64,000 nt of DNA from Eledone cirrhosa (taxonomy: Eukaryota), in NCBI GenBank assembly GCA_964016885.1, contig OZ024741.1:229834001-229898000 (forward strand). Reading direction: 5' to 3'. Each line of letters starts with the position of its first letter. Positions within the stretch are counted from its first letter, which is position 1. This document shows positions 11,853 through 38,280 of this stretch, in pieces. The notes under the pieces were generated by a model, which was given only the letters and a program-made list of their open reading frames with translations, searched no databases and had not been told where the DNA came from. The position numbers and the translations under genes are program-made.

Positions 11853-12026
11853 ATATACGTTATTCCGGGTTGAATCAGAGGTAACCACAGTAAGTAAAGT
11901 ACTCAATACATAGCAGAGTATAAAAGTTTTAATATAGATGAGATTCTACAGGACTAGAACTGTTTCATATTCCTGATGATTTCTAAAGATTGAAACAGTT
12001 CTAGTCTATAGAATCTCATCTATATT

Positions 12027-20529: not shown

Positions 20530-21531
20530 CAGGGTACGGACAATATTTGTTCGCAATTTTCAACTGCTAATTTTATGCAAATTTTTTTTACTTCCGTTGT
20601 CACTCTTGTCTTCATAAAAACAGTGACTATATTTCCATTATTTATTTTCAGAATAATTGATTATGAATAATTTTGAACCTCCAAATTTGTGGAAGAGACA
20701 CGGAGTTCTTCTTGGAATCCGCACCAGGAGGACAAATAAGGAAATTTCAGACTTTCTCAGCGTCAGCAGGAGAATGGTGGCAAAGGTCAGAAAGGAATTG
20801 GAAGATTCAGGATTCGACTACGAAGCAACATCAGAGAGGAAAACACATGATCAACGATCTGATGCCTTCAGAACGCCTGAGTTCGTCGCTGAAGTTCAGG
20901 ATATCATCAACAATGAACCTAGCAAGTCGATGCGTGCCATTGCAAGGGAGAAAGGCGTGGATGAAAAGCTCATTAGGCTGGTGGTACATGAAGACATTCG
21001 CTACGTTTCATACAAGATGAGGAAAGGACAATTTCTGTCAAAGGCGATGCAAGAAAAGCGACTGAAGCACGCAAAGAAGCTGATCAACAAGTTAAAACAC
21101 CCACTGGAGCCAGACATGCTGTGGTTTTTCTCCGACGAGAAAAACTTCTGCCAAGACCAGAAGATCAACTCCCAGAACAACAGGTGGCTCACTGTCTCAT
21201 CCAAAGACGTGCCCAGAGTCATGCAGACAAAGTTTCCAGCGACAACATCGGTCTTAGGTGTCGTCAGCAGTCAAGGTGATGTCATGCCACCTCGCTTCTT
21301 CCCTGAGGGCCTCAAGCTGAACACCGATGGCTACATCTGAGCGAAGTAGTAAAGCCCTGGAATCGACCAGGTAGCTGCAGGTAGGCTGTACGTGTGGCAG
21401 CAAGACTCAGCGAAAGAACAAGTCATGAAGACAAACTGACCCAAGTTTGATAAATAAATCTTAAAAAATAAAACTACTGTGTTATTTTTTCCTAGACAGT
21501 AATCTTGCGAACAAATATCGTTCGCACCCTG
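20530..21531 (+). mobile_element. Tc1/mariner transposon of maT/DD37D type, with C-terminal deletion, in CINP intron 4
   Basis: 27-bp TIRs (CAGGGTACGGACAATATTTGTTCGCAA and TTGCGAACAAATATCGTTCGCACCCTG, 3 mismatches), TA on both sides. Transposase ORF 20657-21340 has WFFSDEKNF..NSQNNRW, then a frameshift to YVWQQDSA; the third catalytic D region is missing. Confidence 0.92.
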
Positions 21532-30835: not shown

Positions 30836-31049
30836 TGTATATATGTATGTAGATTTATATATATATATAAGTATTGAAGTTTCCGTTGAAAATTGAAAAA
30901 GTCATAGGAGTGAAGAGTGCTCTAAGTAAGTTACAGAGCTAAATTTAATGTATAATAAACAATACAATATAATTACCTCATCATATTCTGTGGTGACAGT
31001 CAAGTTTGCAATTTTTGAAAATTGCAAACTTGACTGTCACCACAGAATA

Positions 31050-31088
31050 TGAACCTGAAGATTGCGAAAGCATGAAAGTACTTGTTCA
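31050..31088 (+). ncRNA. Minimal type-I hammerhead ribozyme motif (PLE pseudo-LTR type)
   Basis: TGAAC-CTGAAGA-TTGC GAAA GCAT-GAAA-GTAC-TT-GTTCA: stem I TGAAC/GTTCA, core CUGANGA/GAAA, GNRA-capped stem II, palindromic GTAC stem III, UH site. The 10.1-11.1 pair is a T-T mismatch. Confidence 0.7.
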
Positions 31089-32105
31089 ATTAACACTTCT
31101 CATACTATTTCATTATAATATCATTATAATTTTAAAGGATTGTAAATAAAACGAGTAAATCAGACAAAGTTGGAATTCCTTTTATTAATATATATATAAA
31201 TATACATACATACATACATTTACGTATGTATATAGCTATGCATTTATATTTAAGTGTGTAAGGATGTTGACATGATTATTTATGTTGTTTTTTTTGGTAT
31301 GGAGAAAATTCTGTCTCCGAATTTTATTACCTAGGGAGATTAAATACCACAGCTCTGGCTGAAAGCTGACCAGGTTCTCAACCTCATCAAACACTAACGC
31401 AGGCCTCTGTGTGTATATGTGTGTGTGTGTGTATGTATGTACGTATGCATGTGTGTGTATGTTCCTATGTATGTATATGTATACACCCACACCTTTCATC
31501 ACCATTGCTTCTTTTTGTCATTTCTGTTGAAGTTGTTCTTGTAACTGTTGTCAAAGTTGACGTCCTTATGTTCATTTTCTTTTATCTCCCTAGGGAATTC
31601 ATTGACAGGCTTCTTTTATTTATTTTCTTCATTTTCTTCATTCAAATGCATTCACACTGGGTGTCTAAGAGACGTACAAATATAACTTATAAAACTTACC
31701 AAACTAAAGAGACTTCCGGCGCCCCCCTAACGCCTCCTTGCTCCCAAACGCTCCCCTGGAGCTCCGAAACGCCCCCCGGGAGGAGGTGGCATATGTACCC
31801 CGTTGAGAACCTTTGTTCTAGAATATAAAGTACTATTGCTATAGAATATATAGAACCACTGTTATGGAATATATACAATATGTATATTTGTTCTCCTTAG
31901 GACAGAGCTCTTTGGTGAAAGTATTACAATTACTATGCTATAGGTCTCACAAACTAATTAGTAACAGATGACACCATATACACATAAATATATATATTCA
32001 GCTTCATTTTTCCTTATATTTTTTTTAATAAGTAAAAATATGAATAATGACAACAATAACAGAAATTAATAGTTTTATTTATACATGTGTATATACATAT
32101 ATATA

Positions 32106-32234: not shown

Positions 32235-33421
32235 ATATTGTTATACTTTGGGAGGGTCATGTTGCCAATAAGAAACACACGCACCAGTTGCTTTCACTTC
32301 AATTTATTATAATAAATTTATAAATTTAGGAATTTATAAATTTCCTGTTGGTTGGTTGGTTCCACAACCAGATGGTTGTTTATATATTGTCAAAGTTCTT
32401 TCGTCACACATTCTGTGACCTCTTCAGTGACTGGGGATTCTTTTCTTTGTTTTTTGTGCCTCTCCTTTGTTCTGTCCTATGCCATCTTGTTTTTGTGTGT
32501 GTGTTGTGTGCTTAGTTTACGCATGTGTTACATCCGGGTGTCTGTGTGTGTTTATATTCGTTTATTTATTTGTTTATTATAATGTTACTGGTTGGTTGTT
32601 TGTTCTATGTGCGTGTGTGTTTTCATTTTGTCCTTAATTGTAAATGTCCTTAATTGTGATGTTGCTGTTCCCTAATTTACCCTTATGTTCTATTTTAGCA
32701 TGTTGATAGAGTACAAATGATTCTTTACTATCTTGAAGGTCTCGCCAGTGTTCATTTATCCGTTCCCCTATACTACAAGCTGTCTCACCTATGTACACTA
32801 TATTTTTATCTCTACATTGTCCTTCAGTACATCTTATGCTATATACTACATTTCTAGTTTTACAGTTAATATGGAGACTTAATTTACAGATTATACATTT
32901 CTTATCTATACAGGGAGGTCTTTGAAAAGGGTATGTCTTGCTAATAAGTGTTTTTATGGAGGTACCTGGTCTTTCTACTATCTTAATATTGAGTTTATGT
33001 TTATCTAGGGCCCTTCTAAATTTGTAAGCTAATTCACCTCTAGGGGTTGTATTGATGAACATTACACTCTGGTATTTATTGCTATCATACCATGAGTTTA
33101 TTCTATTAGCCTTATTCCTAGTTCTTTCTATTCTATTCCAAAATTTGCTCCTATACAAGGGGCAGGTCCCATTTGTGTCATTATTTACCATTTTTTCCCA
33201 TTTGGTTCTGGCTCCTCTATACACTCTGATTTTATCTCTCTGATTGTAACCAGAGAACTGCATACGGTGGAACTTTGACAATATATAAACAACCATCTGG
33301 TTGTGGAACCAACCAACCGGAAATTTATAAATTCCTAAATTTATAAATTTATTATAATAAATTGAAGTGAAAGCAACTGGTGTGTGTGTTTCTTATTGGC
33401 AACATGACCCTCCCAAAGTAT

Positions 33422-33428
<7 letters not shown>
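32235..33428 (-). mobile_element. Penelope-like element, 5'-truncated, with inverted pseudo-LTR copy
   Basis: ORF 32634-33296 has a Cys linker and GIY-YIG motif (RNVVYSIRC...VYIGETACSIGERINEH). 32235-32398 is repeated in inverted orientation at 33270-33428. Flanked by (TA)n-rich DNA. Confidence 0.9.
32389..32431 (-). ncRNA. Minimal type-I hammerhead ribozyme motif in the PLE pseudo-LTR
   Basis: Minus strand GTCA-CTGAAGA-GGTCACA GAATG TGTGAC-GAAA-GAAC-TT-TGAC: stem I GTCA/TGAC, 6-bp stem II with one extra G, same GAAA-GNAC-TT layout as 31050-31088. Confidence 0.65.
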
Positions 33429-33478
<50 letters not shown>

Positions 33479-36284: not shown

Positions 36285-38280
36285 ATACCAATCATGCCCT
36301 CAGACTCTTCAACTCCTTCTCCTTCCCTCCTGGTCCCTCTTGCCTTCTCTTTACCCTGGACATCACCTCTCTCTATACCGTCATCCCTCATGATGACGGC
36401 CTCCGTGCTCCCAACATGTTTTACACTTACGCCCTACCCCTTACTCCAGCACTACCACTCTTCTCCATCAGGCTGAGCTTGTTCTCACCCTCAATGGCTT
36501 TTCCTTTTCAGGTGAATTCTATCAGCAAGTCTCTGGGGTAGTGATGGGAACCAGAATCCAAACCATGCCAACTTGTTTGTTGGCTATGTCGAAGCCCAGA
36601 TCTTCTCCCAGTACACTGGACCAACTTATGAGCTATACGGTCGTTATATCGACGACTGTATCGGCGCCACCTCTCTATCATGAGAACAGCTCAACTGCTT
36701 TCTTTCTTTTGTCTTATCTTTCCATCCTGCTCTCACTTTCACCACCTCCATCTCAGATTCTTCTGTTGCTTTTCTAGATATCTCTCTCTCTATCACACCC
36801 TCTCTACTTCCATCTTCATTAAACCAACAGACTCTCACTCTTACCTCGACTTCACCTCCTCCCATCCAACCCACACCAAACACTCTATACCCTATTTCCA
36901 ATTCCTCCGTCTTTGTCAGCTCTGTAGCCAGGACGACGATTTCAAACCCTATTCCCTTCACATGGCTTCCTGCTTCATCCAGCGTAGATATCCCCCCTCC
37001 CTGATCCAAGCTGCCCACACCCATGAAACAGACCGCACCACAGCCCTCTCACCTCACCCCGGCCCTCCCAACACTCGCATTCCTTTCCCTCTCACCTACC
37101 ACCCCATCACCCTACCACTCCGGCGACATATCCTCCGTTCCATCCGTATCCTCTCTTCTCGCTTTTTTCCAAACCCACCCATTACTGCTTTTAAGCGCGC
37201 CCACAACCTCCTGGTTCGCAGTTCCTTCTCATCCTCTCCCACAACTCCACCTGGCTCTCATCCTTGTTCTCGTTCCCGCTGCAACACTTGTCCCTTCACT
37301 TCCACCCTCACCACTCTTACAGGCCCTAACAGGTCTTTCCATATCCACCATTCCTTCACCTGCACATCCACCCACGTTGTCTATGCCCTCCAGTGTCCCC
37401 TTTGCAGGTCTTTATATATCGGACAAACGGGACGCCGTATGGTGGACCGTTTTGCTGAACATTTGAGCAACATACGACTCAGTTTGGATACTCCTGTCGC
37501 CCATCATTTCTGTTCTGGTCATTCTTCCCTACATGTCCTGGGTGTCCTTTTAAATCATGGATCACAGGCCTCGCACACCAGGACTGAACAAAGTCTGGTT
37601 CACCGACTTGGGTCCTATTCCCCTCTTGGACTCAACTCACCTCCCCACTTTCTTTAATACCCCGTTCATTATCACACATGCTTGTACATTCACCTCTAAA
37701 TTCCTATCACTCTCTCTTGATCATTAACATCTTCTCTTACAACTAATACAGGCCGACTATATATGCTCACTCCACTTTTCCCTTCACTGCTCTCTATACA
37801 CACATACACACCCTTATATTAACATACTTTTGCTCATAGCTTCGTACTTACATGCACACACACTCTTTTACTTACATATACACACACATTTCTTCTTAGC
37901 TTTGTACGAACGTATAACAACACACACACGCACAAGCTTACGTACGTGCACAAGTATAGCTCTTTTTACAAAACGTTTTTTTTTTCATTTTCTAAAAAGT
38001 AAATCATACACAAAATGCCAGCACCAATAGTTTTGCAACATGAATGGATCTGTTTGCAATAGATGTCAACGTGAATGGATCTGTTATTTTTATCTAAAGA
38101 CATTTTTTCCAATTCCAACCCGCCCGTCCCCTCAATCTATCTTATTTCTCATTCTTTCTTCTGGTGAAGGACTAGCGTCAAAAGCGTTAAGACCCTCTTC
38201 CTGCTATATCAAGCATTAACCTAATAAACCCCTTCCATATACTGTACCGATTATGTTGTTATTTCTGTTTACCTTTTACA
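36285..38280 (+). mobile_element. Penelope-like element (RT + GIY-YIG), frameshifted, antisense in RBKS intron 6
   Basis: SLDITSLYTVIPH, YQQVSGVVMGT, YGRYIDDCIG, KPTDSHSYLDFTSSHP, THVVYALQCPLCRSLYIGQTGR...RFAEH, ending PLGLN; 3' pseudo-LTR runs to (TA)n at ~38280. Confidence 0.92.

What the first reader, a model, noticed from the sequence alone, without database searches (positions are those of the whole stretch)
30981..31195. Stand-alone minimal hammerhead ribozyme fused to a perfect 35-bp DNA hairpin
Seen: 30981-31015 and 31018-31052 are perfect reverse complements with a 2-nt loop. The hairpin runs directly into TGAAC-CTGAAGA-TTGC(GAAA)GCAT-GAAA-GTAC-TT-GTTCA (31050-31088), then an AT-rich stretch with AATAAA and (TA)n. 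Established: minimal type-I hammerheads with a 4-nt palindromic stem III typify Penelope-like pseudo-LTRs and non-LTR retrozymes, and are thought to cleave as dimers. Inference: this is a short, ORF-less retrozyme-like or solo-pLTR insertion between RBKS and CINP, with predicted cleavage after CUU at 31083. The T10.1-T11.1 mismatch may have weakened it.
Basis: partly seen in the sequence, partly recalled or inferred. Interest (0 to 1): 0.8.

Follow-up and report, generated by a model that had tools for sequence, protein, structure and literature searches.

The report
Two jumping genes joined at ribozyme cut
This is the end piece of a very common Penelope-type jumping gene, with its small hammerhead RNA motif, joined head-to-head to the end piece of a second, distantly related Penelope-type element exactly where that second element's own hammerhead is predicted to cut; this suggests that these ribozymes likely do cut in the animal and that two different RNAs were likely stitched into one insertion.

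Summary
The hairpin and the hammerhead core are there as described, but they are not a stand-alone retrozyme. Bases 31015-31191 are the terminal repeat (pLTR) of an abundant autonomous Penelope-like retroelement (family A, Neptune/Nematis-type; 4,843 exact copies of the hammerhead 40-mer; ~4.2-kb parents with RT and GIY-YIG found). The 35-bp hairpin is a short inverted second arm, a known PLE trait. The U10.1-U11.1 mismatch is family-wide (T in 80 of 80), not decay. New: the left flank (30871-30981, minus strand) is the tail-bearing end of a Hydra-clade PLE (family B), and it starts at the first or second base after B's own predicted hammerhead cut. Genome-wide, most A copies start 60-75 nt upstream of the cut (likely transcription start), but head-to-head junctions also pile up at the cut (108 matches versus 20 in a control window). 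That is indirect DNA evidence of in-vivo cleavage. Best reading: a two-family composite joined at the cDNA stage; sequential insertion with deletion is a close rival. The scan earlier noted upstream-starting PLE copies in another genome (e1-7858714).

The parts
30836..30870 (.). (TA)-rich microsatellite, left target flank
   Evidence: sequence, TRF-type low complexity
30871..30981 (-). Family B (Hydra-type PLE) pLTR 3' end with its ~75-nt tail; its 5' end is base +1 or +2 after B's predicted hammerhead cut (1-nt overlap with the A arm)
   Evidence: 110 of 111 nt identical to copy L217 from the cut onward; 1,831 exact copies of a 33-mer; parent ORF in L252/L253; hammerhead fold of L217
30981..31015 (-). 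Short inverted arm of family A (element positions -65 to -31 relative to A's cut): the left stem of the 35-bp hairpin
31015..31191 (+). Family A (Neptune/Nematis-type PLE) pLTR from position -68 to the tail-less end; carries a private ~15-nt deletion near 31098-31101
   Evidence: matches the 3' end of full-length element L070; deletion seen as loose ends and against copies
31050..31088 (+). Minimal type-I hammerhead of family A; predicted cut between 31083 and 31084 (CUU triplet); stem III only as an intermolecular palindrome
31190..31250 (.). (TA)/(TACA) microsatellite, right target flank

Best explanation
The locus is a head-to-head composite of the 3' ends of two Penelope-like retroelements from different clades, which were likely joined as cDNAs during one integration into a (TA)n site. 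Shown: family A supplies a tail-less pLTR (31015-31191) plus a 35-nt inverted arm. Family B supplies a tail-bearing pLTR end that begins at +1/+2 of B's predicted hammerhead cut. Inferred steps: (1) A is transcribed from a TATA promoter in its pLTR, with the start ~72 nt upstream of the ribozyme cut, so most templates are uncut. (2) Both ends of the broken target prime reverse transcription, one at the tail site and one at the tail-less site. (3) The cDNA 3' ends are joined by short microhomology at the RNA 5' end, which gives the palindromes; a short second arm gives a hairpin like this one. (4) A few percent of templates are ribozyme-cut and leave junctions at the cut. (5) Here the tail-primed cDNA came from a ribozyme-cut B RNA and was joined to the A product. 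The copy itself is promoterless debris with no function shown.
For: Parents: ~4.2-kb A elements with ORF1 and a 775-aa RT/GIY-YIG frame ending in this pLTR. B parents have RWK, DKT, CxCx5C and CxxC..CxH (against PMC8557442 section 11). A and B RTs are 24% identical over 218 aa. Start site: 60 of 100 A anchor copies begin at -75..-60; TATAAAA lies 31 nt upstream of -72 in all 12 matches from 6 long loci. One tail plus one tail-less arm: 33 of 35, 19 of 19 pairs with both arms complete among 30 loci, and 9 of 9 B pairs. The window (B tail + A tail-less) and L027 (family C tail + A tail-less) obey the same rule across families. The centre's orientation relative to the tail is random, 27:30, and in B the tail-less arm reaches further 5' in 7 of 9 pairs; simple fold-back of a tail-primed cDNA cannot give either. 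Cut-site signal in A: 108 head-to-head junction matches around the cut versus 20 in an equal window downstream. In the first 48 loci, 43 lie at or within 5 nt 3' of the cut, 3 of them ending exactly at +1 without microhomology; only 5 reach upstream, although a perfect 8-bp palindrome lies there. Two full-length copies are joined at the cut in L070. In B, 7 of 17 junctions are at the cut. No subfamily-variable column lies in the 38-nt ribozyme, against 12 in 111 flanking columns. Two RT start sites and extension of both strands were shown in vitro for a Poseidon PLE (PMC11167929).
Against: Arms of A-A pairs agree at 91 of 98 subfamily-site comparisons (18 pairs), so two-template events are rare: 2 cross-family joins among 144 A 5' regions (a partly selected set), none among 99 B copies. 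The B-A junction is unique in G000. Different families also sit side by side at (TA)n (L229/L230), which allows sequential insertion plus deletion. In long-spacer A pairs the tail arm is the longer one in 9 of 10, as fold-back predicts. In B, 9 of 17 junctions reach upstream of the cut, so there is a peak but no step. The cut and control patterns differ in sequence, so 108 versus 20 is only roughly comparable, and the junctions were classed by eye. In vitro, PAc ribozyme cleavage was dispensable and no RNA reads ended at its cut. CUU is a poor triplet (recalled). No cleavage assay or RNA data.
Confidence: 0.6

Rival explanations
1. Same two PLE ends, joined in two steps: B (from a cut RNA) inserted next to an existing A palindrome and deleted most of its tail arm, or two neighbouring palindromic insertions later collapsed by microhomology-mediated deletion.
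For: Cross-family neighbours at (TA)n exist (L229/L230; L029). The junction has an ATGA-like microhomology with a 3-nt slip. Arm concordance shows that trans events are rare.
Against: A plain deletion would have to land on B's +1/+2 by chance. Short A arms of 24-34 nt are a recurring class (10 of the 16 short inverted matches). Both cross-family loci keep the one-tail/one-tail-less rule.
Confidence: 0.33
2. The hairpins and palindromes arise by fold-back self-priming of a single cDNA; small spacers are inverted later, which hides the polarity.
For: Arms are near-identical (1.8% versus 4.5% between pairs); the tail arm is longer in 9 of 10 long-spacer A pairs; short hairpins occur with either arm type.
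Against: The commonest centre (546 exact copies) would need a 1-nt loop; orientation is 27:30; in B the tail-less arm is often longer; at this locus the tail-less A arm has no template but RNA.
Confidence: 0.3
3. Junctions near the hammerhead reflect reverse-transcriptase stalling at stem I or local microhomology, not cleavage; the ribozyme is inert in vivo.
For: 21 of the 48 classed A junctions lie at +2 to +5 with microhomology; GTT/AAC and AATT favour joining there; B shows no step; one search found cleavage dispensable.
Against: A's stem I is only 5 bp. Blunt junctions end exactly at +1. The better palindrome upstream is used in only 5 of 48. A peak at the cut appears in two unrelated families.
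Confidence: 0.2
4. A stand-alone non-LTR retrozyme whose unit includes the hairpin and which replicates through a circular RNA.
For: Minimal type-I hammerhead, ~200-nt ORF-less copies, high copy number.
Against: No short tandem arrays among 100 listed places; autonomous parents share the sequence; hairpin length varies by copy.
Confidence: 0.03

Closest known systems
EN+ Penelope-like elements, Neptune/Nematis type (PMC8557442; PMC4209133)
   Same: C-terminal GIY-YIG, Cx4CxxC linker, CCHH, DKG, pLTR with minimal hammerhead, adjacent inverted 5'-truncated copy, tail on one end only, (TA)n targets
   Different: A separate ~448-codon ORF1 overlaps the RT frame in -1 at a T TTT TTA heptamer; stem II closes with U-U rather than G-C; Neptune versus Nematis was not resolved by a tree
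Hydra-clade PLEs (PMC8557442 section 11)
   Same: Family B has RWK, DKT, CxCx5C, CxxC and CxH around E/N, no CCHH, a type-I hammerhead and (TA)n targets
   Different: A ~1.3-kb low-complexity 3' region makes the unit ~3.7 kb; here its end is fused to a PLE of another clade
PAc Poseidon element in vitro (PMC11167929)
   Same: Two RT start sites that bound the tail; AT-rich targets; mostly uncut template
   Different: That study saw no RNA ends at the ribozyme cut; here DNA junctions pile up there in a minority of copies
Non-LTR retrozymes (PMC7229834; bioRxiv 10.64898/2026.07.22.740005)
   Same: Type-I hammerhead, short ORF-less dispersed copies, PLE relationship
   Different: No head-to-tail arrays; copies are truncations of an autonomous family
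LINE-1 twin priming (recalled, no call)
   Same: Both target ends prime on RNA and the cDNAs join by microhomology
   Different: In PLEs both arms repeat the 3' end, which gives a palindrome rather than an inversion-deletion

Membership tests
EN+ PLE (family A) | RT followed by C-terminal GIY-YIG endonuclease | tested here: met
   775-aa frame: RVT_1 E 2.9e-6 (27.6 bits, below the 29.6 cut-off) and GIY-YIG E 3.3e-6 (above cut-off)
EN+ PLE (family A) | pLTR at both ends, direct or inverted, with hammerhead | tested here: met
   L061, L062, L069/L070
EN+ PLE (family A) | 30-40-nt tail on one end only | tested here: met
Neptune/Nematis | CX2-5CxxC linker and CCHH in the endonuclease | tested here: met
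   translation read against the criteria
Neptune versus Nematis | RT phylogeny | not tested
   no named reference sequences were on hand
Hydra PLE (family B) | RWK, DKT, CxCx5C, CxxC/CxH, no CCHH | tested here: met
   the ORFs read are frameshifted copies; Pfam gives no RT or GIY-YIG hit
Minimal type-I hammerhead | CUGANGA, GAAA, UH core; stems I and II; palindromic stem III | tested here: met
Minimal type-I hammerhead | G10.1-C11.1 pair | tested here: not met
   U-U in the family; precedent for an active U-U variant
Minimal type-I hammerhead | stem covariation | tested here: inconclusive
   the ribozyme columns barely vary within the family
Minimal type-I hammerhead | self-cleavage | not testable with these tools
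   only indirect junction evidence
Non-LTR retrozyme | head-to-tail tandem units of 150-450 nt, each with a hammerhead | tested here: not met
   0 of the first 100 of 4,843 places
Non-LTR retrozyme | circular RNA | not testable with these tools
   needs RNA data that the session did not have

The most novel reading that the evidence does not exclude
PLE integration uses two separately primed cDNAs, one from the tail site and one from the tail-less site, joined at their 3' ends. It can draw them from elements of different clades, and hammerhead-cut RNA is a real in-vivo template. This locus is a Neptune-Hydra hybrid frozen at the ribozyme cut, and such joins offer a route for module exchange between PLE clades.
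Probability: 0.4. Interest if true: 0.72.

Novelty: new variant of a known kind. Interest (0 to 1): 0.5.

Why it matters
The papers read call two things open: what the hammerhead does in endonuclease-positive PLEs, and how the inverted, tailed insertions form (PMC8557442; PMC11167929). This genome holds thousands of young copies whose junctions can be counted, so both questions become testable from DNA alone. If the reading holds, it gives genomic evidence that minimal hammerheads cut in vivo, supports twin priming, and shows that distant PLE clades can recombine during insertion. The single copy in the window has no demonstrated function.

Tried and rejected
Rfam: only sub-threshold miRNA-hairpin matches, no hammerhead family; rejected as hairpin artefacts. 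RNA: no RNA holder listed. Contigs of 4 runs (at most 2 samples, 1 study) cover both families, but no listed piece spans the stretch or the B-A joint, so the joint rests on the assembly alone. A genome-wide count of centre orientation against tail could not be obtained; the test rests on 65 fetched loci. (TA)n-joined 5' ends near A's cut (31 loci in the first 100 of 309 overlapping matches; 3 clearly upstream, 28 at -1 or downstream) point the same way, but the pattern favours downstream joins, so I give it little weight. The idea that cut-site junctions mark full-length copies was rejected: 1 of 35 leads into ORF1. The binomial and Poisson values use ad hoc nulls and are not relied on, apart from 27:30. 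The two flanks resemble an inverted pair over ~30 nt but are low-complexity, so no target duplication is called. Literature: searches showed no report of cross-clade PLE joins or of insertion ends at the hammerhead cut; most subscription papers are not held, and Lünse 2017 was not held (recalled only). Supplements of PMC8557442 and Repbase were not read and may already list families A and B.

Full report
Observation. The 35-bp arms are exact reverse complements around TG, and the hammerhead core reads as reported. The hairpin dominates the fold (z -10.6). The ribozyme alone folds no better than shuffles and Rfam does not list it. Its reality rests on copy number: the 40-mer has 4,843 exact copies in the 3.0-Gb genome G000 and a 3' 27-mer has 7,406. 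The repeat landscape looks cephalopod-like (recalled, untested). The site is about 2.5 kb beyond the last exon of a ribokinase-like gene on the minus strand; CINP was not verified.

Family A. I fetched 10 stretches around widely spaced copies. Three loci (L061, L062, L069/L070) hold ~4.2-kb elements: pLTR with tail, a ~448-codon ORF1, an RT/GIY-YIG frame (open for 775 codons in L069/L070), a 3' UTR and a pLTR. The linker Cx4CxxC, CCHH and DKG fit Neptune/Nematis as defined in PMC8557442 (section 3 and passages seen). ORF2 overlaps ORF1 in -1 at a T TTT TTA heptamer in all 5 element copies checked; frameshifting is inferred. The window arm 31015-31191 is the last ~190 nt of this element without the tail. 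U10.1 is T in 80 of 80 spanning copies, and no subfamily-variable column falls in the ribozyme, against 12 around it. An active hammerhead with a U-U stem II base is described in PMC7229834 (section 15 read).

Where copies start. Of the first 100 anchor copies on contig C1, 60 begin at -75..-60 relative to the cut, 20 further upstream, 5 at -47..-10, 7 rows (6 loci) at -4..+7 and 8 further downstream. TATAAAA lies 31 nt before -72, so I infer a transcription start there; a start inside the pLTR is known for Penelope and Chlamys-3 (section 10). Most templates are therefore uncut, as in vitro for PAc (PMC11167929, parts 1-2 of 4 read).

The hairpin. Head-to-head pairs are the norm: 21 pairs within 2 kb and no short tandem among 100 listed places. 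PMC8557442 and PMC4209133 (parts 1-2 of 4) already describe inverted 5'-truncated copies. One arm has the tail and the other does not: 33 of 35, 19 of 19 complete pairs among 30 loci. Short arms of 24-34 nt form a recurring class (10 of 16 short inverted matches among 144 A 5' regions, a partly selected set); the window's arm is one of them. The asymmetric centre points either way relative to the tail (15:18 and 12:12), and the commonest centre (546 copies) would need a 1-nt loop. Both favour annealing of two cDNA ends. Against this, arms agree at 91 of 98 subfamily comparisons and long spacers favour the tail arm 9:1. Both arms therefore normally come from one RNA or locus, and fold-back with later spacer inversion remains possible.

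Family B. 30871-30981 is another young repeat (39 other places at 98-99%, among 40 scored of 1,387 candidates; 1,831 exact 33-mers). Its parents encode a frameshifted RT/EN with every Hydra-clade motif, only 24% identical to A. B pairs also show one tail and one tail-less arm (9 of 9). B's hammerhead folds with an 11-bp stem I, and the window's piece matches B at 110 of 111 nt from the first base after the predicted cut through the tail. So the locus reads: (TA)n, B tail arm, 35-nt A arm, A tail-less arm, (TA)n. The join is unique. L027 is the mirror case: a family C tail arm, a truncated C arm, then a tail-less A arm from its start site.

Does the ribozyme cut? A head-to-head junctions around the cut give 108 matches against 20 in an equal window ~25 nt downstream. 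I classed by eye the first 50 matches (48 loci): 5 include sequence upstream of the cut, 20 lie at it (3 end bluntly at +1, 17 within microhomology) and 23 lie 1-5 nt downstream, although the best palindrome lies upstream. Two full-length elements meet at the cut in L070. For B, 7 of 17 are at the cut, 9 upstream and 1 downstream; among 99 B anchor copies only 3 start within -3..+1, and 22 start at -75..-51. This fits cleavage in a few percent of templates; RT stalling is not excluded.

Verdict. The identity of both pieces is firm (about 0.95). Cleavage in vivo for a minority of templates is about 0.7. Joining in one event is about 0.5, against 0.33 for sequential insertion or deletion. Known: PLE pLTR hammerheads, inverted copies, tails. 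Not found in my searches: cross-clade joins, or insertion ends at the cut. Of bioRxiv 10.64898/2026.07.22.740005 I read part 1 of 5. Unread supplements may list these families. Interest 0.5; new variant of a known kind.

Noticed in passing
window 32235-33429: A third PLE insertion: 123-bp inverted arms at 98% around a GIY-YIG-type ORF fragment (32637-33392, minus strand, Pfam E 0.0026), ~250 nt beyond the ribokinase-like stop codon.
   Followed up: partly
window 54065 and 62974, minus strand: Two more minimal type-I hammerheads with palindromic stem III, of another family.
   Followed up: no
window 11860-11958: A copy of family C, the PLE-like end that is joined to family A in L027.
   Followed up: partly
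window 36397-37654: Degenerate PLE-like RT/thumb fragment, recognised by eye; no Pfam hit.
   Followed up: partly
window 20657-21337: Tc1/mariner-like transposase ORF (HTH_Tnp_Tc3_2, E 0.0011).
   Followed up: no
L069/L070 (G000:C1:21.872-21.881 Mb): An ~8.5-kb palindrome of two full-length family A elements, both with open 775-codon RT frames, joined at the hammerhead cut.
   Followed up: yes
L070 1837-1927: ORF1/ORF2 overlap with a conserved T TTT TTA heptamer, a candidate -1 frameshift site.
   Followed up: partly
L127, L062: Flanking host DNA copied in inverted orientation around a (TA)n tract next to the insertion, which suggests self-priming of target ends.
   Followed up: no
fetched loci: At least eight further hammerhead families turn up in flanks; two of them also close stem II with U-U.
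   Followed up: no
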